A stretch of 32,000 nt of DNA from Gemmata obscuriglobus. GTDB taxonomy: Bacteria; Planctomycetota; Planctomycetia; Gemmatales; Gemmataceae. The notes below the pieces were generated by a model. It did not search any database, was not told the origin of the DNA, and saw only the letters and a list, made by a program, of their open reading frames with translations. How positions within the stretch are numbered: position 1 is the first letter of the stretch; each line of letters begins with the position of its first letter. Shown piece by piece: positions 1-32,000 of the stretch. A program made the translations under genes and the position numbers. The stretch spans positions 5,190,001 through 5,222,000 of the forward strand of contig NZ_CP042911.1 of NCBI RefSeq assembly GCF_008065095.1. Direction: 5' to 3'.

Positions 1-249
1 GGCGCCGCGAACGTGGAAGGCGAAGCTGTCCAGTACTTCCGCGGGGCCGATGTTGACCTCGATGCTGAACCCCGGCCCGTCGATCACGCCCCACGTCGGG
101 TCGGCGAAGTTGGTCGCCGGTACCGCTCGGAGGATGCCGGCCACGATGTCCGCTCGCCGGCCGATGGGCTGTGGGGCGAAGTCGTCCGGGATCTCCGCCA
201 CCGTGCGGGTGTCGAGCGGCAGGTCTTGGACAAACACGTCGAAGCTCAC
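1..249 (-). CDS. hypothetical cassette protein, 5' part (ORF runs off the window start)
   Basis: My own translation of the - strand from GTG at 249: VSFDVFVQDLPLDTRTVAEIPDDFAPQPIGRRADIVAGILRAV... It is open to position 1 (83 codons). GGAGGG lies 4 nt upstream and the start is 13 nt after attC 263..352. It is absent from the track, presumably because there is no stop inside the window. Confidence 0.55.
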   Translation of the reverse strand, partial: MSFDVFVQDLPLDTRTVAEIPDDFAPQPIGRRADIVAGILRAVPATNFADPTWGVIDGPGFSIEVNIGPAEVLDSFAFHVRGA

Positions 250-262
250 CGCGCCCTCCGCC

Positions 263-352
263 GCCGCATGTGGAGCTCACCTGCTCGCGCGCCCTGGAGG
301 GGGCGATCCCCGAGTTCTGCATGCGCGAGTCTGGTGCAGCGGAGGGTTCGGC
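263..352 (-). other. attC: attC recombination site, divergent type B (copy 1)
   Basis: 90 bp. GCCGCAT-N8-CACCTGCTCGCGC...GCGCGAGTCTGGTG-N9-GTTCGGC. Same box layout as type A but different arms and loop. Near-identical to 16674..16763. Confidence 0.6.
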
Positions 353-409
353 CCCGCGCCCCACCACGCCGAACATGGGCTGCCCGTGAAGGTGAGCTCC
401 ACATTCGGC
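263..409. repeat. 147-bp nested palindrome: type B attC plus a second, inverted copy of its left arm
   Basis: GCCGCATGTGGAGCTCACC (263..281) pairs with GGTGAGCTCCACATTCGGC (391..409), 18/19. An inner GTTCGGC(346..352)/GCCGAAC(368..374) pair is also present. Confidence 0.7.
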
Positions 410-548
410 CCCGCTCATGCAGCCCGGCAGATGAGCTACACCGATCCGCTCGCGCCTCGGGGGTGGGCGCGGGTCGGGCCAGCCACTTGGGATGGGGGGC
501 TGGCTACCCTATCGACATCGCGCCCACCCCCGTGGGTCTCGGCGCGGG
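353..548 (-). other. short ORF-less cassette, type B content (copy 1), dominated by a long hairpin
   Basis: 196 bp between two attC sites with no credible ORF. Perfect 13-bp arms GGGGGTGGGCGCG (459..471) / CGCGCCCACCCCC (519..531) enclose an inner 7-bp stem GCCAGCC/GGCTGGC (478..484 / 498..504). Duplicated at 16764..16959. Confidence 0.6.
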
Positions 549-639
549 GCCGAACAATGAGCTCACCTGCACCGCCATCACCGGATGAGCGGTGCGTCCC
601 AAGTCCGATGGCGGTGTCAGGTGCAGCGCTGGGTTCGGC
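549..639 (-). other. attC: attC recombination site (type A)
   Basis: 91 bp. GCCGAAC-N8-CACCTGCACCGCC-loop33-GGCGGTGtCAGGTG-N9-GTTCGGC. Spacer variant CAGCGCTGG. Confidence 0.85.
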
Positions 640-895
640 TCGATGCCCTCGGCGTTTCCGGGTTGCACGCCGAGCGCCGCGCCTCCGCGGAGCCCGCGGC
701 ACCGGTGCGTGCGGGCGGAGCATCACCGCCTCGATGCGCCGTGTCGCGGCCCACCGAGGGCCACCCACCACTGCACCTCGCGGCGATGAGCCGCGCCAGC
801 ACCGACCGGCACCAGGCGGAGCCCGACACACGGGTTTCACCACCGCGGGCCACACGCCTACTGCCGCCGCACGCGCGCTCCTGCGACCTCGGGTT
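640..895 (-). repeat. ORF-less repetitive cassette, R family, 1 unit
   Basis: 256 bp between attC sites. R head, one unit with hairpin CGCGGC-GATGA-GCCGCG, and R tail. All six frames are open but low-complexity. Confidence 0.75.
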
Positions 896-985
896 GCCGA
901 ACAAATAGCTCACCTGCACCGCCCGTCCCGATGAGCGATGCGTCCCAAGTCAGACGGCGGTGTCAGGTGCAGCGCCGGGTTCGGC
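896..985 (-). other. attC: attC recombination site (type A)
   Basis: 90 bp; canonical type A boxes; 32-nt loop. Confidence 0.85.
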
Positions 986-992
986 GTCCGGG

Positions 993-1592
993 CTACCCAA
1001 GCCGCTGAGCCATCCCAGGCATCGACCGGACCCACTCGACACCCCCGATCCGGGCGTTCTCGGCTGGGTCGCGCCGGCACTTCTCGTACACGCCCTGCCA
1101 ATAGTCGAGTCGGGCCTCGTGCCCGTCCACCGCCCCGAACACCCAAGCGGAGAAAGACTCGGGCGGCCGCTCCTCATCCGTGATTGGCTCCGGGTCGCCG
1201 TCGAACCCGCAATGCGTCAGCGGGTCGTCCGCCGCGAGGTGTGCGGCGAACACCATCCCGCTGTGGCTGTGGAACGCGAACACCATGTGCGGCCCCGCCG
1301 ACCAGTGGACGACCGGCGGCGGGTCGCCCTCGATCATGGTGGCGAGATCGGTCAGGAACACCTCGCCGTCGATCGTGGCCTCCAGGAAGCAAGCTAGTGG
1401 CAGGGAGGCGTAGAGCTCCCGCACAGCCGCCGGAATCTGGAACCCATGCCGGGCCTCGAACTCCGCAACCCCGGAATCGGTGCCGAGGGCGCGGAACCAG
1501 TCCGGCACCCTGTCGTGAGCGGCCAGTACCTCCGGGTAACGGAGGTAGCCGCGGACTTCAGCGAGGTCGAGAGCACGCTGCAAGTACCGCAT
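993..1592 (-). CDS. SMI1/KNR4 (SUKH) family protein
   Basis: 199-aa track ORF. The ATG is 13 nt after attC 1606..1696 with GGAGG upstream. AEFEARHGFQIPAAVRELY fits the SMI1/KNR4 N-terminal signature (recalled, not searched). Confidence 0.7.
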   Translation of the reverse strand: MRYLQRALDLAEVRGYLRYPEVLAAHDRVPDWFRALGTDSGVAEFEARHGFQIPAAVRELYASLPLACFLEATIDGEVFLTDLATMIEGDPPPVVHWSAGPHMVFAFHSHSGMVFAAHLAADDPLTHCGFDGDPEPITDEERPPESFSAWVFGAVDGHEARLDYWQGVYEKCRRDPAENARIGGVEWVRSMPGMAQRLG

Positions 1593-1605: not shown

Positions 1606-1696
1606 GCCGAATAACAAGCTCACCTGCACCGCCATCGCCGAGTGAGCGGTGCGCTCCAAGTCAGCGGGCGGTGTCAGGTGCAGCGCCGGGTTCGGC
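1606..1696 (-). other. attC: attC recombination site (type A)
   Basis: 91 bp. Left box variant GCCGAAT; otherwise canonical. Confidence 0.8.
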
Positions 1697-2029
1697 TCGC
1701 TCACGTCCGCGCCGCGCATCCGCGGATGCCCGCGCCACCGATGCGGCCACGCGGAGCACCGCCGACCCGGAGCACCGTGTCGCCGCACGTCGGAGGCCAC
1801 CCACCACCCCCACTCGCGGCGACGAGCCGCGCCGACCACCGACCGGTGTTGGCGGAGCGCCACCGACCCGAACCGCCGTGTCCCCACCCGCCGCCCGCCA
1901 CGCCCAACCGCACCTCGCGGCGACGAGCCGCGCCCGCGCCCACCGGCACTCTGCGGAGCCCGACGCGCGGGGTTCACCCACGCGGACCACACGCACACCG
2001 CCGCACGGGCGCTCCAGCACGCGAGGGTT
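1697..2029 (-). repeat. ORF-less repetitive cassette, R family, 2 units
   Basis: 333 bp. Head contains palindrome GCATCCGCGGATGC. Two CGCGGC-GACGA-GCCGCG hairpins, then the R tail. Confidence 0.75.
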
Positions 2030-2120
2030 GCCGAACATAAAGCTCACCTGCACCGCCATCATCGGATGAGCGATGCGTCCCGAATCAGCAGGCGGTGTCA
2101 GGTGCAGCGCCGGGTTCGGC
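2030..2120 (-). other. attC: attC recombination site (type A)
   Basis: 91 bp; canonical type A boxes. Confidence 0.85.
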
Positions 2121-2426: not shown

Positions 2427-2517
2427 GCCGAACAACAAGCTCACCTGCACCGCCATCACCCAAGCCGCGACGCGTCCCGAATCAGATGGCGGTGTCAGGT
2501 GCAGCGCCGGGTTCGGC
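2427..2517 (-). other. attC: attC recombination site (type A)
   Basis: 91 bp; canonical boxes; loop variant ATCACCCAAGCCGCGACGCG. Confidence 0.85.
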
Positions 2518-2970
2518 GTCTTGGGGCGACTCGTGCAGAGACTCCATGAACGCGGTGAATGTGTCCGCCACCGGGAACGCGTTGCGCCCGTCCTCGCGGA
2601 CCCACAGCCCGTTGCGGTCCCAAAAGAACACACGCCCGGCGTCTGGCGCGAAGGTCGCCAGGAGGAACGTGTTGCCGCCGGGGTCGTGCCCGATGGCAAG
2701 GAATCCCGGCGGCAGCGGGTCCCAGAGCGTCGCCTGCTCCTGCTCGTACTCTAGGTCGGCGTGGGTACGCTCGCTCCGCACTCCGTAAAAGATGGCCGCC
2801 AGCGCCGGGCCACGATTCGGGACGACAAACTCTTGCGGGTCTGGGCACCCGCCATTGATGGTGCGGAGGAACCGCTTGTAGTCGGCCGGCAGCCTGACCC
2901 CGAGCCGCTTCTCGGCGGCGTTCACCACTGCGGCGGATACGGGGCCATAGCTCCGGCTGAACGTCGGCAT
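2482..2970 (-). CDS. SMI1/KNR4 (SUKH) family protein
   Basis: Track ORF 2482..3123 trimmed to ATG 2970 (GGAGGG about 12 nt upstream, 21 nt after the attC). AEKRLGVRLPADYKRFLRTINGG and FLAIGHDPGGNTFLL are typical SMI1/KNR4 blocks. The stop is supplied by the attC loop. Confidence 0.8.
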   Translation of the reverse strand: MPTFSRSYGPVSAAVVNAAEKRLGVRLPADYKRFLRTINGGCPDPQEFVVPNRGPALAAIFYGVRSERTHADLEYEQEQATLWDPLPPGFLAIGHDPGGNTFLLATFAPDAGRVFFWDRNGLWVREDGRNAFPVADTFTAFMESLHESPQDAEPGAAPDTAI

Positions 2971-2991
2971 TCGCAACCGCGCCCTCCGGCG

Positions 2992-3082
2992 GCCGAACAT
3001 AAAGCTCACCTGCACTGCCAGGATCGAGTGAGCAACACAACGCAGATCAGATGGCGGTGTCAGGTGCAGCGCCGGGTTCGGC
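2992..3082 (-). other. attC: attC recombination site (type A, loop subtype 2)
   Basis: 91 bp. Arm variant CACCTGCACTGCC. Loop AGGATCGAGTGAGCAACACAACG... Confidence 0.8.
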
Positions 3083-3312: not shown

Positions 3313-3404
3313 GCCGAACGATCAAGCTCACCTGCACCGCCATCATCGGACGAGCGGTGCGCTCCAAATCAGCGGGCGGTGTCAGGTGCAGCGCCGGGTT
3401 CGGC
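3313..3404 (-). other. attC: attC recombination site (type A)
   Basis: 92 bp (9-nt left spacer); canonical boxes. Confidence 0.85.
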
Positions 3405-3728
3405 GTCTGGGGCCTCGGGCAACAGTTGCACGAGGTCCGCGTCGGTGACCGGCCGCGTGTACGGCAACCTGACGCCGTGGGCCTGCAACACCTGTTGGTA
3501 ATGGAGCAGCCGACCGACGAGTGACTGCGCCAACTCTTGCAGGTCGCTCAGGAACTCGTCGTCCTCGGGGGCGTGATCCCGGACCCGCCGTGCGACACTC
3601 ACCGCAAGCCCGCACAGGATGCGGAGGCTGTCGCCCTGGATGACCGCGCCGGGGAAGTTGCGGCCGGGCGGCTTGACCACCGCGTAGTTCGAGTCCGTGG
3701 CGTACACCTCTAGCGGCAGCACCTCCAT
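3369..3728 (-). CDS. hypothetical cassette protein
   Basis: Track ORF 3369..3947 trimmed to ATG 3728 (AGGAGG 9 nt upstream). The product MEVLPLEVYATDSNYAVVKPPGRNFPGAVIQGDSL... has balanced composition. The stop is in the attC loop. Confidence 0.6.
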   Translation of the reverse strand: MEVLPLEVYATDSNYAVVKPPGRNFPGAVIQGDSLRILCGLAVSVARRVRDHAPEDDEFLSDLQELAQSLVGRLLHYQQVLQAHGVRLPYTRPVTDADLVQLLPEAPDAEPGAAPDTAR

Positions 3729-3757: not shown

Positions 3758-3848
3758 GCCGAACAACAAGCTCACCTGCACCGCCATCACCCGATGAGCG
3801 ATGCGTCACAACTCCGCGGGCGGTGTCAGGTGCAGCGCCGGGTTCGGC
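3758..3848 (-). other. attC: attC recombination site (type A)
   Basis: 91 bp. Differs from attC 16230..16320 only by 2 nt in the left 8-nt spacer (loop identical); that is the attC of the other S21-like cassette. Confidence 0.85.
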
Positions 3849-3894: not shown

Positions 3895-4149
3895 CTACAA
3901 GGATGGACGCGGCGGGTCGGGCCAGTTGGCCTCAGACTCGCACTCACGCTGGTACTCCCGCCACGACCGCAACCCTTGGGCCCGCCGCTTGGCGTTGCCC
4001 TTGCGCCGCCGCCGCTCCTCGCACCGCTTGGTGAACTCGTCGTGCCAGCGGTACTCGTACATCACGTTCGCCGACCGGACGTACTTGCGGAACCTCCGCA
4101 GGGCCGACGTGAGCGACTCGCCCTCGCAGACCTCCACTCGGACACCCAT
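3895..4149 (-). CDS. ribosomal protein bS21-like protein (copy 1)
   Basis: 84-aa track ORF. VEVCEGESLTSALRRFRKYVRSANVMYEYRWHDEFTKRCEERRRRKGNAKRRAQ aligns by eye with the bS21 core (E. coli ...[43 protein letters not shown]). Identical to 16367..16621. Confidence 0.65.
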   Translation of the reverse strand: MGVRVEVCEGESLTSALRRFRKYVRSANVMYEYRWHDEFTKRCEERRRRKGNAKRRAQGLRSWREYQRECESEANWPDPPRPSL

Positions 4150-4201: not shown

Positions 4202-4292
4202 GCCGAACAATGAGCTCACCTGCACCGCCACCTCCAAGGGAGCGGTGCGTCCCACGTCAGATGGCGGTGTCAGGTGCAGCGCCGGGTTCGGC
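4202..4292 (-). other. attC: attC recombination site (type A)
   Basis: 91 bp; canonical boxes; loop variant ACCTCCAAGGGAGCGGTGCG. Confidence 0.85.
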
Positions 4293-4669: not shown

Positions 4670-4760
4670 GCCGAACAAATAGCTCACCTGCACCGCCATC
4701 ACCGGATAAGCGGTGCGTCCCAAGTCAGACGGCGGTGTCAGGTGCAGCGCCGGGTTCGGC
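4670..4760 (-). other. attC: attC recombination site (type A)
   Basis: 91 bp; canonical type A boxes. Confidence 0.85.
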
Positions 4761-5192: not shown

Positions 5193-5283
5193 GCCGAACA
5201 TAAAGCTCACCTGCACCGCCATCACCGGATGAGCGGTGCGTCCCAAGTTAGCGGGCGGTGTCAGGTGCAGCGCCGGGTTCGGC
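5193..5283 (-). other. attC: attC recombination site (type A)
   Basis: 91 bp; canonical type A boxes. Confidence 0.85.
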
Positions 5284-5638
5284 TCGATGCCCTCGGGGGT
5301 TCCGGGCGCGCTCAGTGTCGCGCATCTGCGGATGCCCGGGCCACCGATGCGGCCGAGCGGAGCCCCACCGACTCGACCCGCCGGGTCGCGACACACCGGA
5401 GGCCACACACCACCGACACCTCGCGGCGATGAGCCGCGCCAGACACCCACGGGCACCACGCGGAGCACCACCGCCACGATCCGCCGTGTCCCTACGCACC
5501 ACCGGCCACCCCCAACCGCCACTCGCGGCGACGAGCCGGGCGGGCCACCGGCGGGCACGACGCGGAGCCCGAACCGCAGGGTTCACCACCGCGGACCACA
5601 CGCCCACGGCCGCACGCGCGCTCCTGCACGCGAGGGTG
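5284..5638 (-). repeat. ORF-less repetitive cassette, R family, 2 units
   Basis: 355 bp; R head, two units, R tail. Confidence 0.75.
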
Positions 5639-5729
5639 GCCGAACATACAGCTCACCTGCACCGCCATGATACAGTGAGCGGTGCGTCCCGAATCAGATG
5701 GCGGTGTCAGGTGCAGCGCCGGGTTCGGC
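5639..5729 (-). other. attC: attC recombination site (type A)
   Basis: 91 bp; canonical boxes; loop ATGATACAGTGAGCGGTGCG. Confidence 0.85.
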
Positions 5730-6087
5730 TCGCTTACCTCGGCGGTTCCGGGCCTCACGCTGAGCGCCGCGCATCCGCTGTGCGCGTGCCACCAATGCGA
5801 GCGTGCGGAGCACCACCGATCCGACGTACCGTGCCGCGGCCCACCGGAGGCCGGCACCAACCGCCACCCGCGGCGACGAGCCGCGCCAGCCCTGATCGGC
5901 ACCACGCGGAGCCCCACCGACTCGCGCCACCGTGTCCCCACTCACTGCCCGCCACGCCCAACCGCACCTCGCGGCGATGAGCCGCGCCGGCCACTCGCGG
6001 GCACCACGCGGAGCCCGACACGCACTGTTCACCTTTGCGGACCATACGTTCAGCGCCGCCGCACGCGCGATCGAGCGCCTTGGGGTT
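5730..6087 (-). repeat. ORF-less repetitive cassette, R family, 2 units
   Basis: 358 bp; R head, two units, R tail. Confidence 0.75.
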
Positions 6088-6178
6088 GCCGAACATAAAG
6101 CTCACCTGCACTGCCATCACCGGATCAGCGATGCGTCCCGAATCAGCGGGCGGTGTCAGGTGCAGCGCCGGGTTCGGC
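6088..6178 (-). other. attC: attC recombination site (type A)
   Basis: 91 bp; arm variant CACCTGCACTGCC. Confidence 0.8.
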
Positions 6179-6515
6179 TCGCTCACATCCGCGCCGCGCA
6201 TCCGCGGATGCCCGCCCACCGGTGCGACCGGGCGGAGCACCACCGAACCACGGCGCCGTGTCCCGACACATCGGGGGCCACCCACCACCGCCACACGCGG
6301 CGATGAGCCGCGCCCGCAACCGATCGGTCTCAGCGGAGCACCACCGACCCGCACCACCGTGTCCCCATCCGCACCCGGCCACAACCACCGCAAGCTCGCG
6401 GCGATGAGCCGCGCCAGGCGCCCATAGGCACCACGCGGAGCCACCACTGACGCGCGGGGCTTACTCACGCGGACTACACGCCCAGCACCGCCGCACGCGC
6501 ATGCACGCGATGGTG
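6179..6515 (-). repeat. ORF-less repetitive cassette, R family, 2 units
   Basis: 337 bp. The first ~226 bp are identical by eye to 13730..13955, then the two diverge. Confidence 0.75.
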
Positions 6516-6606
6516 GCCGAACATAAAGCTCACCTGCACCGCCATCACCGGATGAGCGGTGCGTCCCAGAACAGATGGCGGTGTCAGGTGCAGCGCCGGG
6601 TTCGGC
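6516..6606 (-). other. attC: attC recombination site (type A)
   Basis: 91 bp; canonical type A boxes. Confidence 0.85.
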
Positions 6607-6963
6607 TCGCTGCCGTCCGCGGTTCGGGGTCGCACGTCCGCGCCGCGCATCCGCGGAAGCCCGTGCCACCGATGCGGGCGAGCGGAGCGCCACCGACCCG
6701 ATGCACCGTGTCCCGGCCCACCGGAGGCCACGCCCAATCGCACCTCGCGGCGACGAGCCGCGCCGGCCGCCCACGGGCACCACGCGGAGCACCACCGACA
6801 CGAAACGCCGTGTCCCATGACACCGCCGGCCACGCCCAACCGCACCTCGCGGCGATGAGCCGCGCCACACGCCCACGGGCACCACGCGGAGCCCGACACG
6901 CGCCGTTCACCCACGCGGACCACACGCACGGCACCGCCGCACGCGCGATCGAGCAACTCGGGT
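6607..6963 (-). repeat. ORF-less repetitive cassette, R family, 2 units
   Basis: 357 bp; R head, two units, R tail. Confidence 0.75.
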
Positions 6964-7054
6964 GCCGAACATAAAGCTCACCTGCACCGCCATCATACAG
7001 TTAGCGGTGCGTCCCAGACTAGCGGGCGGTGTCAGGTGCAGCGCCGGGTTCGGC
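6964..7054 (-). other. attC: attC recombination site (type A)
   Basis: 91 bp; canonical boxes; loop ATCATACAGTTAGCGGTGCG. Confidence 0.85.
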
Positions 7055-8209: not shown

Positions 8210-8215
8210 TCGATG

Positions 8216-9366: not shown

Positions 9367-9384
9367 GCCCTGCGCCCTCCGGTG

Positions 9385-12060: not shown

Positions 12061-12078
12061 CCGTTTCGCCCTCTGGGT

Positions 12079-18495: not shown

Positions 18496-18498
18496 GCC

Positions 18499-24883: not shown

Positions 24884-24973
24884 GCCGAACATACAGCTCA
24901 CCTGCACCGCCAGGATACAGTGAGCACCACAACGGCGGCAGATGGCGGTGTCAGGTGCAGCGCCGGGTTCGGC
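24884..24973 (-). other. attC: attC recombination site (type A, loop subtype 2)
   Basis: 90 bp; loop AGGATACAGTGAGCACCACAACGGCGG. Confidence 0.85.
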
Positions 24974-25331
24974 TCGCTCGCCTCCGCGGTTCCGAGCGAC
25001 ACGTCCAGCGCCGCGCATCCGCGGAGCCCGGGCCACCGGTGCGGCCGAGCGGAGCAGCACCGACCCGACGCGCCGTGCGCGGCCCATCGGAGGCCGGCCA
25101 CCACCGCACCTCGCGGCGACGAGCCGCGCCCGCCCTGACGCGCGCCCCGCGGAGCACCACCGACCCGGACCGCCGTGTCCCCACCCGCCGACGGCCACGC
25201 CCAACCGCACCGCGCGGCGGCGAGCCGCGCCACACACCCACGGGCGCCACGCGGAGCGCCACACCACCGCCGGACGCCCCGCGGACCACACGCCCAGCTC
25301 TGCCGCACGCGCCCTCATGCACGCGATGGTA
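24974..25331 (-). repeat. ORF-less repetitive cassette, R family, 2 units
   Basis: 358 bp; R head, two units, R tail. Confidence 0.75.
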
Positions 25332-25422
25332 GCCGAACAAATAGCTCACCTGCACCGCCATCATCGGATGAGCGGCGGGGTCCGAATCACATGGCGGTGT
25401 CAGGTGCAGCGCCGGGTTCGGC
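25332..25422 (-). other. attC: attC recombination site (type A)
   Basis: 91 bp; canonical type A boxes. Confidence 0.85.
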
Positions 25423-25707: not shown

Positions 25708-25798
25708 GCCGAACATAAAGCTCACCTGCACCGCCATCACCGGATGAGCGGTGCGCCCCGAATCAGCCGGCGGTGTCAGGTGCAGCGCCGGGTTCGGC
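25708..25798 (-). other. attC: attC recombination site (type A)
   Basis: 91 bp; canonical type A boxes. Confidence 0.85.
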
Positions 25799-26206
25799 GT
25801 TTGGGGATAACCCGGCGGCCAGGAACGCGGGGAACGAAGGGGCCATCTCGTGGATGCCGCCAAAGTCGTGATCCTCGACCAGCACTCGCCCGGACGAGAG
25901 CTCGATGCCGAACGGGTTGCCGCCGCCATCCCAACCGATGATGAACACTCCTCGCATGTGCCAGAACTCGTTGTCCGCTCGGAACTGGCGGTGCGAATCG
26001 GCCAACTCGGGCAGCCCGTCGATCCACTCGCCGTCACCGCCCACGCGCCCGCCGCACACCGTCAGGTACTCGCGGAACGCTGGCGGGATCGTCCCGAACT
26101 CGACCTCGAACGCCCGCAGGTCGCCCTCGGCGGCCGGCGGGTGGCGTTCCTCCTCAGGGCAGGCGTGCCACGCCGCGACAAGGAGTTGCCGCAGTCGCTC
26201 GTTCAC
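25763..26206 (-). CDS. SMI1/KNR4 (SUKH) family protein
   Basis: Track ORF 25763..26212 (TTG start) trimmed to GTG 26206, which is 7 nt after AGAGGG. GDLRAFEVEFGTIPPAFREYLTVCGG and FIIGWDGGGNPFGIE are typical SUKH blocks. The stop is in the attC loop. Confidence 0.75.
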   Translation of the reverse strand: MNERLRQLLVAAWHACPEEERHPPAAEGDLRAFEVEFGTIPPAFREYLTVCGGRVGGDGEWIDGLPELADSHRQFRADNEFWHMRGVFIIGWDGGGNPFGIELSSGRVLVEDHDFGGIHEMAPSFPAFLAAGLSPNAEPGAAPDTAG

Positions 26207-26222: not shown

Positions 26223-26314
26223 GCCGAACAATGAAGCTCACCTGCACCGCCATCATCGGATGAGCGGTGCGTCCCGCATCAGCCGGCGGTGTCAGGTGCA
26301 GCGCCGGGTTCGGC
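26223..26314 (-). other. attC: attC recombination site (type A)
   Basis: 92 bp (9-nt left spacer); canonical boxes. Confidence 0.85.
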
Positions 26315-26321: not shown

Positions 26322-26777
26322 CTACCCCCGCCAGACCACCTGCACGCCGGCAAGCTCGATGCCGCCTGGCCCGGCGGCGAGTTGCCCGGCCTTGCGGTTG
26401 AGCAGGGCCGGCCCGAAGCACTCGCCGAACCCGACCCGCTCCCCGCAGTGCAGGAAGCTGACGTACGGCCAGCGGTAGAACGACCCCCGCACCTTCTCGG
26501 GGGCGTCTCGCCAGCCGAGCAACCGGCCGGGCCGGCCGCACTCCCGCACCCCGGCGTCCGTCACCTCCCACCACTGGAAGGTGCTGCCGTGGTCGAACTG
26601 CCCGCGCTCCAGGTCGCCGTCCGCGACTTGGTAGATGTACAGCGCGTCGAACGCGGCGAGGTCGGCGACGCGGACCCCGAATGAGTCGGCCACGTAGTCG
26701 AGGAAACGCGGCGTGCGGTGCCACGACCAGACGTCGGCCAGTGCCTCAGCGACCGAACGCGACGGCTGCGGCTCCAT
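26322..26777 (-). CDS. hypothetical cassette protein, 151 aa (copy 3 of 3)
   Basis: Differs from copies 1 and 2 by one residue (RPGQLLGW to RPGRLLGW) plus a few synonymous changes. Its downstream attC loop differs from that of copies 1 and 2. Confidence 0.65.
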   Translation of the reverse strand: MEPQPSRSVAEALADVWSWHRTPRFLDYVADSFGVRVADLAAFDALYIYQVADGDLERGQFDHGSTFQWWEVTDAGVRECGRPGRLLGWRDAPEKVRGSFYRWPYVSFLHCGERVGFGECFGPALLNRKAGQLAAGPGGIELAGVQVVWRG

Positions 26778-26797: not shown

Positions 26798-26888
26798 GCC
26801 GAACAATGAGCTCACCTGCACCGCCATCACCGGCTGAGCGATGCGTTCCAGATCAGCGGGCGGTGTCAGGTGCAGCGCCGGGTTCGGC
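26798..26888 (-). other. attC: attC recombination site (type A)
   Basis: 91 bp; canonical type A boxes. Confidence 0.85.
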
Positions 26889-27393: not shown

Positions 27394-27484
27394 GCCGAAC
27401 GAACAGCTCACCTGCACCGCCATCATCGGATGAGCGGTGCGTCCCGAATCAGCCGGCGGTGTCAGGTGCAGCGCCGGGTTCGGC
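27394..27484 (-). other. attC: attC recombination site (type A)
   Basis: 91 bp; canonical type A boxes. Confidence 0.85.
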
Positions 27485-28033: not shown

Positions 28034-28124
28034 GCCGAACATAAAGCTCACCTGCACCGCCATGATGCAGGCCGCAATGCGTTACAAATCAGCCGGCGGT
28101 GTCAGGTGCAGCGCCGGGTTCGGC
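28034..28124 (-). other. attC: attC recombination site (type A)
   Basis: 91 bp; loop ATGATGCAGGCCGCAATGCG. Confidence 0.85.
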
Positions 28125-28640: not shown

Positions 28641-28731
28641 GCCGAACATAAAGCTCACCTGCACCGCCATCACCGGATGAGCGGTGCGTCCCCATTCAGC
28701 GGGCGGTGTCAGGTGCAGCGCCGGGTTCGGC
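28641..28731 (-). other. attC: attC recombination site (type A)
   Basis: 91 bp; canonical type A boxes. Confidence 0.85.
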
Positions 28732-28757: not shown

Positions 28758-29372
28758 TCAATGCTCCGCCGGACCGGGGGTAAAGGTTTTGAGTAGCTTC
28801 GCCCGCTCCTTGATCGGACCGCCGGTGCTCTTCACCAACCCGACCACGGGGGCGTACCAGTTGGTTTCGGTCCACTCGAGCGTGTCGCCGGTGTACGCAC
28901 GGGTCTCGACCTTCACGCAGTCGAAGGTACCCGCCGGAACCTTGATCCGTTCCTCCACGACCACTCGCGTGACGGTCCGGTCGAACGCCAAGGCGGTGTG
29001 CTTTCTCTCCCAGACGTCCCCGACGCGCGGTGGAAACTTCAGCAGTAGAAATCCGGGAGCATCTCCAGCCATCTCCCACAAGCACCCGTCGCGGACGATG
29101 AGCCTCGTAGCGTTGATGGTAGACGTCTCCATCCCTTCGATCACACACTCAAAGGTACTGCGAATGTGGATCATCGGGTCTCCCCTCCTTAGCCCGACTT
29201 CGGCGATAGTGTCTGTCGTCAGGCCGTTTCTCCGCCCCGCCGTCTCGTACACCCACTCCGTTCCGACTAGGGTCGGGAACTGCCAATTTGGCTTCCGCGC
29301 CTCCTTTGGCACTGGAGCCGCGGCAACAACGCTCGCGAGGATTAATAGCGCGATCGCCAAGAGTTGCCTCAT
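28758..29372 (-). CDS. secreted hypothetical protein
   Basis: Track ORF 28758..29378 (GTG start). ATG 29372 is preferred, 5 nt after GAGGAG. Signal-peptide-like MRQLLAIALLILASVVAAAPVPKE. Lower GC than the array average. Has an unusually long leader of about 76 nt. Confidence 0.65.
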   Translation of the reverse strand: MRQLLAIALLILASVVAAAPVPKEARKPNWQFPTLVGTEWVYETAGRRNGLTTDTIAEVGLRRGDPMIHIRSTFECVIEGMETSTINATRLIVRDGCLWEMAGDAPGFLLLKFPPRVGDVWERKHTALAFDRTVTRVVVEERIKVPAGTFDCVKVETRAYTGDTLEWTETNWYAPVVGLVKSTGGPIKERAKLLKTFTPGPAEH

Positions 29373-29448
29373 CGCCACTCCTCAACGGGAGACACACTTG
29401 CACATGAAGTTCTGGGGGAGGCCGACAATCCACCGGTGCCCTTTGTGT

Positions 29449-29539
29449 GCCGAACGGCGGAGTTCAGCTGCGAGCGGACCCGGTATGCGGTCCGTCCCTG
29501 TAGCGACCTTGGGCTCGCTGCTGCAACTTAGGGTTCGGG
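29449..29539 (-). other. attC: attC recombination site, divergent type D
   Basis: 91 bp. GCCGAAC-N7-GTTCAGCTGCGAGC...GCTCGCTGCTGCAAC-N5-GTTCGGG. The arms are imperfectly complementary with an extra base on the right arm. Confidence 0.5.
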
Positions 29540-29591
29540 TGCGTGGCGGGGCGGATGAAGCCCCGCTCGCAGTTGAGCTCCGCCGTTCGGC
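29449..29591. repeat. 143-bp nested palindrome: type D attC plus a second, inverted copy of its left arm
   Basis: GCCGAACGGCGGAGTTCAGCTGC (29449..29471) pairs with GCAGTTGAGCTCCGCCGTTCGGC (29569..29591), 21/23. A perfect 7-bp hairpin GCGGGGC-GGATGAA-GCCCCGC sits between them at 29546..29566. Confidence 0.65.
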
Positions 29592-29730
29592 CGCGTGCCC
29601 CCGGACGCCCCGTAGCTGAACCCACCCAGACCGCCTTCGCCGCAGGGGTCGGCGCGGGCGGTGCCACCTACTCGGATCGGGGAGGGGCCACCCGCCGGTC
29701 GCGCCGACCCTCTGCGGGTCACGCCACGCG
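29540..29730 (-). other. short ORF-less cassette, type D content, with a 78-nt hairpin
   Basis: No credible ORF. CCGCAGGGGTCGGCGCG (29640..29656) pairs with CGCGCCGACCCTCTGCGG (29700..29717) with one bulge. Confidence 0.55.
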
Positions 29731-29821
29731 GCCGAACGAACAGCTCACCTGCACCGCCATCACCCGATAAGCGATGCGTCCCGGAACAGATGGCGGTGTC
29801 AGGTGCAGCGCCGGGTTCGGC
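29731..29821 (-). other. attC: attC recombination site (type A)
   Basis: 91 bp; canonical type A boxes. Confidence 0.85.
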
Positions 29822-30156
29822 TTCTGCGCCCACCGTCGCGGTTCCGCGGAGCCCGCGCTCGTACCGCGGATCCGCGGAGCCACCACCGACCCGCACCACC
29901 GTGCCGCGGTACACCGGAGGCCACCCCCCACCTCACCTCGCGGCGACGAGCCGCGCCCGCCCTAACGCGCACCACGCGGAGCACCACCGACCCGACCCGC
30001 CGTGTCCCGAGGCACCGCCAGCCGCGCCCAACCGCACCTCGCGGCGACGAGCCGCGCCCACCCCGACCGGCACCACGCGGAGCCCGACGCGCCGGCGTCA
30101 CCTTCGCGGATCACACGCCCACCGCCGCCGCACGCGCGATCGAGCGCCTCGGGGTT
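29822..30156 (-). repeat. ORF-less repetitive cassette, R family, 2 units
   Basis: 335 bp; TTCTGCGC-type head; two units; R tail. Confidence 0.75.
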
Positions 30157-30247
30157 GCCGAACAAACAGCTCACCTGCACCGCCATCACCGGATGAGCGA
30201 TGCGCCTCAAATCAGATGGCGGTGTCAGGTGCAGCGCCGGGTTCGGC
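30157..30247 (-). other. attC: attC recombination site (type A)
   Basis: 91 bp; canonical type A boxes. Confidence 0.85.
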
Positions 30248-30490
30248 CTTGAGCCTAGTCCTTGCCAAGCACCAAGTCCACCACTCGAAAGCCCCGGACG
30301 TGCGGACCGGAGCTGCGGCAGTGACCGAGCAACTGCTCGTCCTCGCACCCGACGTCTTGGAGCGCGTCGGCCAGGACCGGCATCGCGGAGAACTCCCGCG
30401 ACACATCCATCTGACGGGCCAGCGCCAGAGCCGTGCCCGATCACCATCGCTCGGAGAAACTCACCGCCACCTTCTCAAGGAAGACTTCGA

Positions 30491-31558
30491 TAGGACTTAC
30501 GTAGTTGACTTTTGGGTAAGTAGGTATGTAGGTGCGGCGAGGTAGGTTCGCACCGCTTCGCGCACGATGGCCGTCTTGGCCGCGAACCAACTGACGCCGG
30601 ACTTGAGCCGGTGCCACTCGAGCCGCAGGAACGCGCGGATCGCGAGCCCGATGTGGACCGCTTGGGCCCGGCTCATGCGCACCTGGCACCGGTCCACGTG
30701 GCAATGCTGCTTGAGGCCCCGGTGATACTCCTCGATGCCCCACGCGTGCCCGGCCAGAACCGCACGAGTGGCCTCGTCCATGTCGAGGTCGTTGGTGATC
30801 CAATGCTCCGTGCCCCCATCACCGGTGGCGATCCGGAACGCCTTCACCAATCCGAACCCCTCCAGGTGCACCACCGTACCGGCGGCCCCGATCGGGCACC
30901 CCTCGATGGCCCGATTGCCCGTGCGATCCGGGTTCACCCGCCGGTTGCTCCGCACCCGGGTCAGGAAGTGCCACCCCAGGGCCCGCACCGCCTTCAGGTT
31001 GTCCTTGCCCGAGTACCAGGTGTCGAACAGTACCACCCGGGGCGACAGGTCCCGTCCCTTGGCGACCGCCAGCATGGCTCGGAAGTGGTCGTTCTTGGTC
31101 TCGGCTCGGGCCGGGTCGGCGAGCCGGTAATCACACGGTACCAGGGCGGCCCCGTCGGTCCACAGCAGGGTCACCAGCCCGATCCCGCTCACCACCCGGC
31201 GGTGCCGCCCGGACCAGCACCGGCGCACCAGCCCCATGTGCCGGGCGAACGGCTTGTCCAGCACCGAGTCGTCGAGCACCACGGCACCGCCCGGGCGGAC
31301 CGACGACCGGGCTTCGTCCCACAACGCCGCTGGGTCCGGTTCCAGCCGGTGCAGCAGTCGGGTGAACGCATCATGCGCGGGCGCCGTCGGATGGTCCGGT
31401 TGGGCTCGCGCGGCTTCCGCGGCCGACGCCACCTTGGGGGTGGCGATCAGGAATTGGATGTAGTCCTCGGCGCTCGCACGTGGTGCGTTCATGGCCCGAT
31501 CATAGACCAACAACACACCATGCGCAAATCCTGCGCCAGCGCAACTGCGTAAGTCCTA
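30491..31558 (-). mobile_element. insertion sequence, 1068 bp, IS4/IS701-superfamily-like
   Basis: Terminal inverted repeats TAGGACTTACG(T/C)AGTTG at 30491..30507 and 31542..31558 (16/17). They are flanked by direct TTCGA repeats (30486..30490 and 31559..31563). The element carries a single transposase ORF and interrupts a cassette ORF. Confidence 0.8.
30497..31516 (-). CDS. DDE transposase (IS4/IS701-like)
   Basis: 339-aa track ORF (GTG start; ATG at 31492 is probably the real start). Candidate acidic/DDE-type blocks include VVLDDSVLDKP, VLFDTWYSG and WGIEEYHRGLKQ. The PAHDAFTRLL block reminds me of proteins annotated as IS701-family; family assignment is from memory. The stop lies inside the left IR. 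Confidence 0.75.
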   Translation of the reverse strand: MLLVYDRAMNAPRASAEDYIQFLIATPKVASAAEAARAQPDHPTAPAHDAFTRLLHRLEPDPAALWDEARSSVRPGGAVVLDDSVLDKPFARHMGLVRRCWSGRHRRVVSGIGLVTLLWTDGAALVPCDYRLADPARAETKNDHFRAMLAVAKGRDLSPRVVLFDTWYSGKDNLKAVRALGWHFLTRVRSNRRVNPDRTGNRAIEGCPIGAAGTVVHLEGFGLVKAFRIATGDGGTEHWITNDLDMDEATRAVLAGHAWGIEEYHRGLKQHCHVDRCQVRMSRAQAVHIGLAIRAFLRLEWHRLKSGVSWFAAKTAIVREAVRTYLAAPTYLLTQKSTT

Positions 31559-31959
31559 TTCGATCTCCGTGTCGCTGTTGTTGCCCACGAACTCCCCGAA
31601 CACCCCGCCCAGGAACGACCAGCCCCCACGGTCCATCAGCACTGCGAGTTTGTCGAACGGGATGCGGACCAGCCACTCCGGTTGCTGCCCCTGGGCTACG
31701 AAGTACTCACGGGCGACAGTCACCAAGTCGTCGATGCTCCGAACTCCGGGGTCGCAAGAGTCGGCGAGGTCGCCTTCGGGTAACTCCTGCTCCTGCCACC
31801 CCCACACACCGGAGTCGGAGGCGAATGCGTCGTGGAGGCCGTCAACCTCGTCGGACCACACTTCCGGCACGTCATGTTCGCGGTAGCTGAAGACGAACTT
31901 GGCTCGCCGGCCCGCAGTGCGGTTCTTACCGTCTCCCATCCGCTGCGTCCCCTCCGGTG

Positions 31960-32000
31960 GCCGAACGAACAGCTCACCTGCACCGCCATCACCGGATGAG
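31960..32000 (-). other. attC: attC recombination site (type A), truncated by the window end
   Basis: GCCGAAC-GAACAGCT-CACCTGCACCGCC-ATCACCGGATGAG... then runs off the window. Confidence 0.8.

What the first reader, a model, noticed from the sequence alone, without database searches (positions are those of the whole stretch)
1..32000. The whole window is one very dense integron-type cassette array with 62 near-identical attC sites
On the + strand a ~91-bp element recurs every ~0.2-0.7 kb: GCCGAAC-N8-CACCTGCACCGCC-~33 nt-GGCGGTGTCAGGTG-CAGCGCCGG-GTTCGGC. The outer boxes match the integron inverse-core/core consensus RYYYAAC/GTTRRRY at 6 of 7 positions each. The inner arms are complementary except for one unpaired T (GGCGGTG-T-CAGGTG). 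The two spacers are 8 and 9 nt and mostly non-complementary. This is the R''-L''-loop-L'-R' layout with extrahelical bases and an unpaired central spacer that defines attC sites. Both extra bases sit on the right-hand arm of the + strand, which, if I recall the canonical placement of the extrahelical bases correctly, makes + the folding bottom strand and - the coding strand. Independently, every credible ORF is on -, one per unit, starting 13-76 nt (mostly 13-30) after one site and ending at or inside the next. Repeated cassettes behave as gene plus downstream attC. Copies 1 and 2 of the 151-aa ORF share an identical left-hand attC but have different right-hand neighbours. The two S21-like copies have left-hand attCs that differ only by 2 nt in the left spacer (loops identical). 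Site-to-site identity, loop included, is as high as in VCR-type sedentary chromosomal integrons. The window has no tyrosine recombinase. It is therefore either the interior of a very large chromosomal integron (intI/attI expected beyond the right edge) or a CALIN. My guess that the host is a Planctomycete (Gemmata-like) rests only on GC content and remembered protein families.
Basis: partly seen in the sequence, partly recalled or inferred. Interest (0 to 1): 0.75.

Follow-up and report, generated by a model that had tools for sequence, protein, structure and literature searches.

The report
Giant integron cassette array in Gemmata
The window is the interior of a very large array of mobile gene cassettes (integron type, with no integrase gene next to it) in the chromosome of the planctomycete Gemmata obscuriglobus; it is a well-formed example of a known kind of element, and a published genome survey had already catalogued arrays of this kind in this assembly.

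Summary
The window carries 61 complete copies and 1 cut copy of a ~91-nt element, all in one orientation, where chance predicts none. The window is the exact reverse complement of Gemmata obscuriglobus CP025958.1:2798374-2830373.

The + strand folds into canonical attC bottom-strand geometry. It has a 7-bp R box containing AAC, a 5+5-nt unpaired spacer, and bulged bases at positions 16 and 23 separated by a 6-bp stem, on the arm opposite AAC. Stem pairs covary across Gemmata species.

Cassettes read on the - strand. Each has a ribosome-binding site and start codon 13-20 nt after one site, and its own attC downstream.

In five relatives the same attC type lies just downstream of a genuine integron integrase (TIGR02249).

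The array starts 7.6 kb to the right of the window at a conserved ~430-nt leader with an attI-like site. It runs at least 58 kb and holds at least 107 sites. No intI lies within it or in the 12 kb upstream, so it is a CALIN.

IntegronFinder 2.0 Table S3 already lists a 133-attC CALIN and a complete integron for this assembly.

Two features look undescribed: multiple integrase-less leader copies, and an ORF-less tandem-repeat cassette family making up about a third of the cassettes.

The parts
263..352 (+). attC site 1 (divergent type A); + strand is the folding (bottom) strand
549..639 (+). attC site 2 (canonical)
896..985 (+). attC site 3 (canonical)
1606..1696 (+). attC site 4 (canonical)
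2030..2120 (+). attC site 5 (canonical)
2427..2517 (+). attC site 6 (canonical)
2992..3082 (+). attC site 7 (canonical)
3313..3404 (+). attC site 8 (canonical, 92 nt)
3758..3848 (+). attC site 9 (canonical)
4202..4292 (+). attC site 10 (canonical)
4670..4760 (+). attC site 11 (canonical)
5193..5283 (+). attC site 12 (canonical)
5639..5729 (+). attC site 13 (canonical)
6088..6178 (+). attC site 14 (canonical)
6516..6606 (+). attC site 15 (canonical)
6964..7054 (+). attC site 16 (canonical)
7477..7567 (+). attC site 17 (canonical)
8119..8209 (+). attC site 18 (canonical)
8924..9015 (+). attC site 19 (canonical)
9385..9475 (+). attC site 20 (canonical)
9946..10036 (+). attC site 21 (canonical)
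10559..10649 (+). attC site 22 (canonical)
11091..11181 (+). attC site 23 (canonical)
11446..11535 (+). attC site 24 (canonical)
12079..12168 (+). attC site 25 (canonical)
12502..12591 (+). attC site 26 (canonical)
13065..13155 (+). attC site 27 (canonical); own attC of 151-aa cassette copy 1
13639..13729 (+). attC site 28 (canonical)
14064..14154 (+). attC site 29 (canonical)
14675..14765 (+). attC site 30 (canonical); own attC of 151-aa cassette copy 2, identical to site 27
15249..15339 (+). attC site 31 (canonical)
15673..15763 (+). attC site 32 (canonical)
16230..16320 (+). attC site 33 (canonical)
16674..16763 (+). attC site 34 (divergent type A; keeps R box, 5-nt spacer and 3'-arm bulges)
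16960..17050 (+). attC site 35 (canonical)
17404..17493 (+). attC site 36 (canonical)
17955..18044 (+). attC site 37 (canonical)
18405..18495 (+). attC site 38 (canonical)
18998..19088 (+). attC site 39 (canonical)
19426..19516 (+). attC site 40 (canonical)
19959..20049 (+). attC site 41 (canonical)
20578..20668 (+). attC site 42 (canonical)
21015..21106 (+). attC site 43 (canonical)
21497..21587 (+). attC site 44 (canonical)
22003..22093 (+). attC site 45 (canonical)
22346..22436 (+). attC site 46 (canonical)
23004..23094 (+). attC site 47 (canonical)
23452..23539 (+). attC site 48 (divergent type B)
23750..23840 (+). attC site 49 (canonical)
24275..24365 (+). attC site 50 (canonical; best model score; DNA fold z = -4.7)
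24884..24973 (+). attC site 51 (canonical)
25332..25422 (+). attC site 52 (canonical)
25708..25798 (+). attC site 53 (canonical)
26223..26314 (+). attC site 54 (canonical, 92 nt)
26798..26888 (+). attC site 55 (canonical)
27394..27484 (+). attC site 56 (canonical)
28034..28124 (+). attC site 57 (canonical)
28641..28731 (+). attC site 58 (canonical)
29449..29591 (+). Site 59, doubtful: 143-nt near-perfect palindrome with GCCGAAC/GTTCGGC ends but no unpaired spacer or bulges
29731..29821 (+). attC site 60 (canonical)
30157..30247 (+). attC site 61 (canonical)
31960..32000 (+). attC site 62, cut by the window end
993..1592 (-). Cassette ORF, 199 aa, no Pfam family; typical layout (start 13 nt after upstream attC, stop 7 nt before own attC)
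2482..3015 (-). Cassette ORF, SMI1_KNR4/SUKH family (immunity-protein superfamily)
3369..3728 (-). Cassette ORF, DUF6959
3895..4149 (-). Cassette ORF, 84 aa, ribosomal protein S21-like, copy 1
16367..16621 (-). Cassette ORF, S21-like, copy 2 (cassette body 100% identical to copy 1)
9022..9417 (-). Cassette ORF, weak SMI1_KNR4
11500..12108 (-). Cassette ORF, Barstar family
13163..13618 (-). Cassette ORF, 151 aa, copy 1 (no Pfam family)
14773..15228 (-). Cassette ORF, 151 aa, copy 2 (cassette 100% identical to copy 1)
26322..26777 (-). Cassette ORF, 151 aa, copy 3 (99.4% identical DNA)
14190..14660 (-). Cassette ORF, SUKH_5/SMI1_KNR4/SUKH_6
25763..26206 (-). Cassette ORF, 147 aa, SMI1_KNR4
28758..29378 (-). 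Cassette ORF, DUF3108-like
31556..31939 (-). Cassette ORF, 127 aa; ends at the edge of the inserted IS
30490..31559 (-). Insertion sequence inside a cassette: 18-nt terminal inverted repeats (30490-30507 / 31542-31559) and DDE transposase ORF 30497-31516
640..895 (-). ORF-less tandem-repeat cassette (1 unit)
1697..2029 (-). ORF-less tandem-repeat cassette (2 units, spacing 101 nt)
5284..5638 (-). ORF-less tandem-repeat cassette
5730..6087 (-). ORF-less tandem-repeat cassette
6179..6515 (-). ORF-less tandem-repeat cassette
6607..6963 (-). ORF-less tandem-repeat cassette
12169..12501 (-). ORF-less tandem-repeat cassette
13730..14063 (-). ORF-less tandem-repeat cassette
15340..15672 (-). ORF-less tandem-repeat cassette
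17051..17403 (-). ORF-less tandem-repeat cassette
17494..17954 (-). ORF-less tandem-repeat cassette (3 units, spacing 103 nt)
18045..18404 (-). ORF-less tandem-repeat cassette
19089..19425 (-). ORF-less tandem-repeat cassette
22094..22345 (-). ORF-less tandem-repeat cassette (1 unit)
23095..23451 (-). ORF-less tandem-repeat cassette
24974..25331 (-). ORF-less tandem-repeat cassette
29822..30156 (-). ORF-less tandem-repeat cassette
353..548 (-). 196-bp cassette that travels with the divergent type A attC; copy 1
16764..16959 (-). 196-bp cassette with type A attC; copy 2 (100% identical, different neighbours)

Best explanation
The window is the interior of a sedentary, chromosomal, integron-type gene-cassette array of Gemmata obscuriglobus (reverse complement of CP025958.1:2798374-2830373). 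Each ~91-nt repeat is an attC recombination site.

Shown: when single-stranded, the + strand folds into an imperfect hairpin with a 7-bp R box (GCCGAAC/GTTCGGC) and a 5+5-nt unpaired central spacer. Two extrahelical bases, C at position 16 and T at position 23, flank a 6-bp stem. A variable top follows. Each cassette is a short body, usually one promoterless ORF on the - strand with its own ribosome-binding site, followed by its own attC. The array begins 7.6 kb to the right of the window at a conserved ~430-nt leader ending in GGTTCGGC. It runs at least 58 kb with at least 107 canonical sites. No intI lies in the 12 kb upstream or in the 58 kb of array read, so it is formally a CALIN. Relatives carry the same attC type directly downstream of a genuine IntI.

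Inferred: an integron integrase (IntI, a tyrosine recombinase) binds the folded bottom strand, cleaves between A and C of AAC in the R box, and recombines attC with attC (excision as a circle) or attC with attI (insertion at the array head). The IntI acts in trans from elsewhere in the genome. The leader supplies attI (three direct repeats CCGTGTTATTGYGCGA, an inverted copy, and the GTT core) and perhaps a promoter (TTGAGC-17 nt-TACACT).
For: Repeat statistics: 56-57 matches against 0 expected, single orientation.

Fold: the DNA fold shows the R box, 5-nt spacers, and bulges at positions 16 and 23 on the 3' arm with a 6-bp stem between. The z-score is -4.7. This is the published attC bottom-strand geometry (PMC5027507).

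Model and covariation: a covariance model built from the window sites finds 61 + strand sites here (the cut 62nd, 31960-32000, is not among them). It scores the - strand about 70 bits lower. It finds 342 matches in Gemmata relatives, which include weaker opposite-strand matches at the same sites. Stem covariation is present: 10 of 23 pairs carry compensatory changes, in 71 cells against 10.5 in shuffles and at most 16 in slid controls.

Cassette logic: an RBS and start codon lie 13-20 nt after the upstream site. Stops fall just before or inside the cassette's own attC. Duplicated cassettes carry their own left-hand attC into different neighbourhoods, including a divergent attC type that travels with its 196-bp body.

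Integrase link: tblastn finds IntI homologs (49-55% identical to IntI1) next to this attC type in L045, L025, L008, L009 and L068. They score 399-450 bits on TIGR02249 integron integrase, cut-off 265. They align without gaps through the IntI-specific region.

attI: the sequence 3' of G. algarum intI is 82% identical to the array head here, and similarity stops at GGTTCGGC.

Independent literature: IntegronFinder 2.0 Table S3 lists CALINs of 39, 47, 133 and 48 attC and one complete integron of 78 attC for GCF_003149495.1.
Against: No intI lies in CP025958.1:2778892-2849077. The locus syntenic to the G. algarum intI lacks it. The G. obscuriglobus intI was not seen here. An older survey scored it 'inactivated' because of Y203N, and it was not among the 146 closest relatives of two Gemmataceae IntI. 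Current mobility of the array is therefore unproven.

The R boxes match RYYYAAC/GTTRRRY at only 6 of 7 positions. The first extrahelical base is C, not the usual G. IntegronFinder's own attC model could not be run here, and Rfam has no hit. Assigning the window to the 133-attC entry of Table S3 is an inference from size, because that table gives no coordinates. One site (29449-29591) lacks attC geometry.
Confidence: 0.93

Rival explanations
1. The array is a fossil. It is a genuine integron cassette array, but it is no longer mobilised because it has no integrase of its own and the genome's IntI is defective or not cognate. The repeats would then be relics kept alike by gene conversion or recent ancestry.
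For: No intI lies in 70 kb around the array. Cambray et al. 2011 score the G. obscuriglobus intI as inactivated, Y203N. That IntI is not a close relative of the G. algarum or CJuql4 IntI that sit next to this attC type. The draft and complete assemblies of the type strain are collinear over the parts compared. An IS sits inside one cassette.
Against: The attC sites are 91% identical on average, and the right arm is nearly invariant while cassette bodies are unrelated. That points to continuing selection or homogenisation by a recombinase. There are 100%-identical cassette duplicates at distant positions, each with its own attC. The three leader copies in this genome carry different first cassettes, as expected from separate insertions at each attI. 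IntegronFinder 2.0 calls one integron in this assembly 'complete'. The 'inactivated' call rests on a single substitution.
Confidence: 0.3
2. The repeats are not recombination sites. They would be an intergenic palindromic repeat family (REP/BIME-like, or a MITE) acting as transcription terminators or mRNA stabilisers between short genes.
For: They are GC-rich imperfect palindromes at the 3' end of nearly every short gene, and they fold equally stably on both strands (-26.4 against -25.7 kcal/mol on average). Rfam has no hit and no published attC model was run here.
Against: All 62 copies share one orientation within one locus. The geometry matches attC in detail, including bulge positions and the arm they sit on. 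The same element lies next to integron integrases in five relatives. Arrays begin exactly at a conserved attI-like GTT core. Units move as body plus attC. There are no terminal inverted repeats with target duplications and no T tracts.
Confidence: 0.03
3. The sites are recombined by a recombinase other than IntI, and the association with intI in relatives is incidental.
For: No recombinase is linked to this array. The only mobile-element gene inside it is a DDE transposase.
Against: The DDE gene sits in an ordinary IS with its own 18-nt inverted repeats. The conserved AAC/GTT core, spacer and bulges are the features IntI reads. Five independent intI-attC adjacencies all show the same relative orientation.
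Confidence: 0.03

Closest known systems
CALIN (cluster of attC sites lacking an integron integrase), as defined with IntegronFinder (Cury et al. 2016, PMC4889954; Neron et al. 2022, PMC9024848)
   Same: It has at least 2 attC sites in one orientation, closely spaced, with no intI nearby. Table S3 of Neron et al. lists four CALINs (39, 47, 133 and 48 attC) and one complete integron (78 attC) for this very assembly.
   Different: It is far larger than typical: the average CALIN has 5-6 attC. It is not visibly degraded. It keeps a conserved ~430-nt leader with an attI-like site, paralogous to the one 3' of intI in G. algarum. That leader occurs at least 3 times in this genome.
Sedentary chromosomal integrons such as the Vibrio cholerae superintegron with its VCR sites
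   Same: Both have a chromosomal location, on the order of a hundred cassettes or more, and highly homogeneous attC sites with a long, partly structured variable top. Most cassettes are short ORFs of unknown function, and several encode immunity-type proteins. This comparison rests on established knowledge and on PMC9024848.
   Different: There is no adjacent intI. The attC is 91 nt, not ~120-130 nt, and the first bulged base is C rather than G. The host is a planctomycete with 65-73% G+C. About a third of the cassettes belong to one ORF-less tandem-repeat family.
Integrons with 'inverted' intI orientation (Treponema denticola and others; recalled from Boucher et al. 2007, not read here)
   Same: In the Gemmataceae relatives, intI reads towards the array, on the same strand as the cassette ORFs, and attI lies past its 3' end.
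   Different: The Gemmataceae IntI are 49-55% identical to IntI1. I did not place them on a tree, so membership of that phylogenetic group is untested.

Membership tests
attC site (integron cassette recombination site) | Terminal inverted boxes R'/R'' with conserved 5'-AAC-3' / 5'-GTT-3' (consensus RYYYAAC / GTTRRRY) | tested here: met
   GCCGAAC / GTTCGGC are present in all canonical sites. AAC/GTT are invariant, and the consensus is matched at 6 of 7 positions. Definition from PMC5027507.
attC site (integron cassette recombination site) | Unpaired central spacer of about 5-6 nt on each arm between the R and L boxes | tested here: met
   The DNA fold gives a 5x5-nt internal loop in canonical and type A sites. 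The doubtful site 29449-29591 does not have it.
attC site (integron cassette recombination site) | Extrahelical bases at about positions 16 and 23/24, separated by a 6-bp stem, on the arm opposite the AAC triplet of the recombined (bottom) strand | tested here: met
   On the + strand, bulged C is at position 16 and bulged T at 23, counted from the 3' end, with a 6-bp CACCTG/CAGGTG stem between them. Both are on the 3' arm, and AAC is on the 5' arm. The base at 16 is C, not the usual G.
attC site (integron cassette recombination site) | Structure rather than sequence is conserved: stems covary | tested here: met
   10 of 23 pairs show compensatory changes. These fall in 71 cells, against 10.5 in shuffles and at most 16 in slid controls, across 149 distinct Gemmata sites. 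Caveat: the alignment was fitted to the model.
attC site (integron cassette recombination site) | Scored as attC by the IntegronFinder covariance model | not testable with these tools
   The model is not on hand and Rfam has no attC family. Indirect support: Neron et al. 2022 Table S3 reports 345 attC calls in five elements for this assembly.
Complete integron | intI within about 4 kb of the attC cluster | tested here: not met
   tblastn with IntI1 and two Gemmataceae IntI finds nothing (E > 0.2) in CP025958.1:2778892-2849077. The gene list for the 12 kb upstream shows LPS-core genes and a 423-aa membrane protein.
Complete integron | Integron integrase (tyrosine recombinase with the IntI-specific extra domain) associated with this attC type | tested here: met
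   Met in relatives only. P0068, P0001 and the L008 ORF score 399-450 bits on TIGR02249 (cut-off 265). They align gaplessly with IntI1 residues 195-240. For G. obscuriglobus itself the evidence is from the literature only.
Complete integron | attI site at the head of the array, where similarity between platforms ends at the GTT core | tested here: inconclusive
   Five leader copies from two species, one of them 3' of intI, align up to GGTTCGGC and diverge after it. They share direct and inverted repeats of CCGTGTTATTGYGCGA. Binding and recombination are untested.
CALIN | At least two attC sites clustered, with no intI nearby | tested here: met
   At least 107 canonical sites with median spacing 418 nt, and no intI.
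Sedentary chromosomal integron array | Large array (more than 10-20 cassettes) with highly similar attC sites, on the chromosome | tested here: met
   There are 62 sites in the window and at least 107 in the array. Mean column identity is 91%. The array lies on the 9.0-Mb chromosome.
REP/BIME or MITE repeat | Copies dispersed in both orientations; for MITEs, terminal inverted repeats with target-site duplications | tested here: not met
   There is a single orientation in one locus, and no complete - strand copies. Genome-wide dispersal could not be scanned because the source genome did not appear in the collection scan.

The most novel reading that the evidence does not exclude
In Gemmata the integrase-less arrays may not be decayed integrons. 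They may be working satellite platforms. A ~430-nt leader (attI-like site plus a candidate promoter) has been duplicated without intI. It is kept at 82-86% identity in at least three loci of G. obscuriglobus and two of G. algarum, apparently since before the two species split. Each copy heads its own array with a different first cassette. One IntI would then serve several platforms in trans, together holding about 345 attC sites. In addition, about a third of the cassettes are a single ORF-less family of 101-103-nt tandem units with invariant sequence blocks. This could be a new class of non-coding integron cassette that is selfish, regulatory or protein-binding.
Probability: 0.35. Interest if true: 0.6.

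Novelty: already known. Interest (0 to 1): 0.35.

Why it matters
As an integron-type array this adds nothing in kind. It confirms that a tool-less reading of raw sequence recovered attC anatomy, strand assignment and even the host genus correctly.

Its value is as a case study. G. obscuriglobus carries one of the largest cassette reservoirs outside Vibrio: 345 attC calls in five loci in a published table, with at least 107 sites in this array alone. The reservoir sits in a planctomycete and has not been described in the text of any paper I could search.

If the leader copies are functional attI/promoter modules, CALINs need not be read as degraded integrons. If the ORF-less repeat family is under selection, it would be a tractable example of non-coding cargo spread by integron recombination.

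Tried and rejected
- **Rfam.** It returned nothing for the whole window at gathering thresholds, and nothing for 16900-18500 at E<=1. Rfam has no attC model, so this says nothing about attC.
- **Structured-RNA reading of the ORF-less units.** RNAalifold on 60 distinct units gave only an invariant 6-bp hairpin, a covariation term of -0.09 and no compensatory pairs. I rejected this reading for lack of support.
- **Coding reading of the ORF-less family.** No frame stays open across members, and unit spacing is 101, 102 or 103 nt within single cassettes. Rejected.
- **Units as decayed attC sites.** The attC model, run with filters off, finds nothing inside them. Rejected.
- **Sigma-70 promoter scan.** It made no calls in the window or in the leader. 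The TTGAGC-17-TACACT motif scores 8/12, below the tool's threshold, so it rests on conservation alone.
- **Locating the G. obscuriglobus intI.**
  - Two protein searches seeded with Gemmataceae IntI did not return it in their top 120 hits.
  - A walk 12 kb upstream of the array found no intI.
  - The locus syntenic to the G. algarum intI does not carry it.
  - The supplement that lists it holds no sequence.
- **Finding the distal end of the array.** The array still runs at 2849059, and look-ups ran short.
- **Collection scan.** The genome-contig scan did not return G. obscuriglobus itself, so genome-wide dispersal of the repeat could not be measured directly.

Full report
**1. The observation**

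The two halves of the described element were searched separately with up to 3 mismatches. The left half matched 56 times and the right half 57 times, all on the + strand. Dinucleotide-preserving shuffles gave 0.00 and 0.01 matches.

Pairing the halves gave 58 complete sites. A search for perfect R-box pairs and a covariance model added divergent copies. The final count is 61 complete sites plus one cut by the window end (31960-32000).

- Fifty-seven sites are canonical, 90-92 nt long, with 91% mean column identity. The 3' arm is almost invariant.
- Sites 263-352 and 16674-16763 are a divergent type that keeps the geometry.
- Site 23452-23539 is a second divergent type.
- Site 29449-29591 is a near-perfect 143-nt palindrome with the same end boxes but no spacer or bulges. 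I mark it doubtful.

**2. The source**

Exact-protein look-ups place the window in Gemmata obscuriglobus CP025958.1 (GCA_003149495.1) and in the older draft ABGO01. Merging the fetched loci shows the window is exactly the reverse complement of CP025958.1:2798374-2830373. G+C is 65-73%.

**3. Anatomy of the repeat**

Folded as single-stranded DNA, the + strand gives this layout, from the outside in (z = -4.7 for site 24275-24365):

- a 7-bp R box (GCCGAAC/GTTCGGC);
- a 5x5-nt internal loop;
- 3 bp (GCT/AGC);
- a bulged C;
- a 6-bp stem (CACCTG/CAGGTG);
- a bulged T;
- 7 bp (CACCGCC/GGCGGTG);
- a ~33-nt variable top.

Counted from the 3' end, the bulges are at positions 16 and 23. Both lie on the arm opposite the AAC triplet.

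Nivina et al. 2016 (PMC5027507) describe the attC bottom strand as follows. AAC lies in R' (RYYYAAC). The unpaired central spacer is 5-6 nt per arm. Extrahelical bases sit at position 16 (usually G) and 23 or 24 (a conserved T). A 6-bp stem between the first and last bulge is needed for efficient recombination. The bulges lie opposite the AAC on the bottom strand.

The match is complete except that position 16 is C and the boxes fit the 7-nt consensus at 6 of 7 positions.

**4. Structure is selected**

I built a covariance model from 45 distinct window sites with the structure above.

- In the window it finds 61 + strand sites. It scores the opposite strand of the same places about 70 bits lower.
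- In 62 loci from other Gemmata and Gemmataceae genomes it gives 342 matches at E <= 0.01. These include weaker opposite-strand matches at the same sites.
- On the 149 distinct best sites, 10 of 23 pairs carry compensatory double changes. These fall in 71 cells, against 10.5 +/- 2.9 in shuffles and at most 16 in slid controls.

The alignment is fitted to the model, so the numbers lean towards it. The contrast with the slid controls is nevertheless large.

**5. Cassette logic**

For ORF-bearing units the - strand shows GGAG/GAGG 3-6 nt after the upstream site and a start codon at +13 to +20. Stops lie 6-8 nt before the unit's own attC, or at fixed positions +23/+36/+43 inside it.

Duplicated units show what moves together:

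- The two 100%-identical 151-aa cassettes share an identical left-hand attC (91/91). Their right-hand sites differ (86/91).
- The two identical S21-like cassettes have left-hand attC 89/91 identical and unrelated right-hand sites.
- A 196-bp cassette occurs twice with its own divergent attC type, in different neighbourhoods.

This is the gene-plus-downstream-attC unit expected from crossover at G|TT.

Most products have no Pfam family. Those that do are SMI1_KNR4/SUKH (several), Barstar, DUF6959, DUF3108-like, and two ribosomal S21-like proteins.

**6. The link to an integron integrase**

A scan of one genome per species for the right-half pattern returned 60 loci. Almost all are from Gemmata algarum, Gemmata spp. 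and Gemmataceae.

Identity is 51-55% and E-values are 1e-74 to 1e-101. A further homolog is in G. algarum JC717, L068.

Three of these proteins score 399-450 bits on NCBIfam TIGR02249 'integron integrase', whose cut-off is 265, over the full profile. P0001 and P0068 align with IntI1 without gaps through residues 195-240, the IntI-specific region, and keep the catalytic residues.

In all five loci intI reads towards the array, on the cassette-coding strand.

**7. Where this array starts and what is missing**

In gene orientation the first attC is at L001:2762. The first cassette (SMI1_KNR4) starts right after GGTTCGGC at L001:2337-2344, which is record ~2790772, 7.6 kb beyond the window's right edge.

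Upstream lie 620 nt of non-coding DNA, a 423-aa membrane protein, and then LPS-core genes. tblastn finds no integrase in 2778892-2849077.

The non-coding DNA is a conserved leader.

- The ~400 nt before the GTT core are 82% identical to the sequence 3' of intI in G. algarum JC717.
- They are 86% identical to the syntenic region of G. algarum JC673, which also follows the 423-aa gene.
- Two more copies head other arrays at ~0.42-0.44 Mb of the G. obscuriglobus chromosome (L083).
- All five copies align up to GGTTCGGC and diverge after it.
- They share three direct repeats CCGTGTTATTGYGCGA, an inverted copy, and an invariant TTGAGC-17 nt-TACACT.

I read this as attI plus perhaps a promoter. That is inference from conservation and position only, because the promoter scan does not call it.

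**8. Extent**

The array still runs at record 2849059. That gives at least 107 canonical sites, plus several divergent ones, over at least 58.3 kb.

**9. What the literature already holds**

- Cambray et al. 2011 (PMC3108266, supplementary file 5) list an intI on draft contig ABGO01000017.1 of G. obscuriglobus UQM 2246. They score it 'inactivated' on one substitution, Y203N. The array head is on a different draft contig, ABGO01000270.1.
- Neron et al. 2022 (PMC9024848, Table S3) list five elements for GCF_003149495.1: CALINs with 39, 47, 133 and 48 attC and one complete integron with 78 attC.
- Only the 133-attC entry can hold an array of at least 107 sites, so the window almost certainly lies in it. 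The table gives no coordinates, so this is an inference. Its 83 proteins for 133 attC fit the many ORF-less cassettes.
- No paper I could search discusses these arrays in its text.

**10. Verdict on the interpretation**

The REP/MITE alternative fails on orientation, geometry, the integrase association and unit mobility. Whether the array is still mobile is open (probability of 'fossil' about 0.3).

- Against activity: there is no local intI, and the genome's IntI may be defective or distant in sequence.
- For activity: the attC sites are very homogeneous, there are identical duplicated cassettes, and each leader copy has a different first cassette.

**11. The ORF-less cassettes**

Seventeen of the 61 cassettes in the window, and 37 of about 107 in the array read so far, belong to one family that is 72-89% identical among members.

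- Each has a ~68-nt head, one to three tandem units of 101-103 nt, and a tail.
- No reading frame is kept, and the unit spacing is not a multiple of three.
- Sixty distinct units from G. obscuriglobus, G. algarum and a Gemmata MAG share invariant blocks (GCTCCGC, a CGCGGC-N5-GCCGCG hairpin, CACGG) between variable stretches. They always have the same orientation relative to attC.
- There is no covariation beyond the invariant hairpin, no Rfam match, and no resemblance to attC.
- Both arrays in L083 begin with a member of this family.

Their role is unexplained. A selfish non-coding cassette or a protein-binding or regulatory element are both possible.

**12. Scores**

The element is real and its kind is known. 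Arrays of this kind in this assembly are already in a published results table, so I rate it 'already known' with modest interest (0.35). The leader copies without intI and the ORF-less repeat family are the parts worth a specialist's time.

Noticed in passing
window 640-895, 1697-2029, 5284-6963 (four in a row), 12169-12501, 13730-14063, 15340-15672, 17051-18404 (three in a row), 19089-19425, 22094-22345, 23095-23451, 24974-25331, 29822-30156: One family of ORF-less cassettes built from 1-3 tandem units of 101-103 nt, with invariant sequence blocks and a fixed orientation relative to attC. It makes up about 28% of cassettes in the window and 35% of the array. It also occurs in G. algarum and a Gemmata MAG. 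It shows no conserved frame, no RNA covariation, no Rfam hit and no resemblance to attC. Function unexplained.
   Followed up: partly
L001:1884-2344 (CP025958.1 ~2790318-2790778); L083:8274-8734 and 16664-17084 (CP025958.1 ~0.42-0.43 Mb); L069:11750-12209; L068:11090-11534: A ~430-nt conserved leader heads each array. It has an invariant TTGAGC-17 nt-TACACT, three direct repeats CCGTGTTATTGYGCGA, an inverted copy, and the GTT core. It is present at least 3 times in G. obscuriglobus without intI, and in G. algarum both 3' of intI and after the 423-aa gene.
   Followed up: partly
window 30490-31559: An insertion sequence (18-nt terminal inverted repeats, DDE_5/DDE_Tnp_1 transposase) sits inside a cassette. 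The rest of that cassette resembles the intact cassette at 8210-8923.
   Followed up: partly
window 3895-4149 and 16367-16621: Two identical cassettes encode an 84-aa ribosomal protein S21-like product. A translation-machinery paralogue is unusual integron cargo.
   Followed up: no
window 2482-3015, 9022-9417, 11500-12108, 14190-14660, 25763-26206; also L082: Several cassettes encode SMI1_KNR4/SUKH, Barstar and (in L082) Imm1-type proteins. These are families known as immunity proteins against polymorphic toxins, so the array may be partly an immunity-gene store.
   Followed up: no
window 368-409 and 16779-16820 (- strand): Inside the duplicated 196-bp cassette is a 42-nt inverted partial copy of the start of its own divergent attC (GCCGAATGTGGAGCTC...). 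The attC model picks it up weakly (E 0.05). It may be the scar of an aberrant recombination.
   Followed up: no
window attC columns 31-46 (e.g. 579-594 in site 549-639): The variable top of the attC holds a small inner hairpin whose stem appears to change in a compensatory way between sites (CACCG...CGGTG against CATCG...CGATG). Some sites carry a different hairpin (CTCCC-A-GGGAG). Seen by eye only.
   Followed up: no
window 29449-29591: A 143-nt near-perfect palindrome carries the attC end boxes but no unpaired spacer or bulges (fold z = -8). It may be a different element or an attC derivative.
   Followed up: partly
L017:6712-6784 and 7049-7144 (G. algarum JC673 contig_178): One G. algarum array head with only the short attI-like core lies about 270 nt downstream of a tRNA-Cys gene. 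A second short core lies elsewhere on the same contig (L044:330-385).
   Followed up: partly
L009 (MAG labelled Alcaligenaceae), L021 (Streptomyces), L032 (Alphaproteobacteria), L035 (Gemmatimonadales), L038 (Limisphaerales): Exact matches to the Gemmata right-half attC pattern occur in contigs assigned to unrelated taxa. L009 carries a Gemmataceae-like intI plus this attC, so binning contamination is likelier than transfer. The others were not examined.
   Followed up: no
L078:10447-11258 against L068:8200-11534: At the locus syntenic to the G. algarum intI, G. obscuriglobus lacks the 227-aa gene, intI and the leader. Many short-read assemblies break about 95 nt after the Prok-JAB gene there, which suggests a repeat at that point.
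   Followed up: partly
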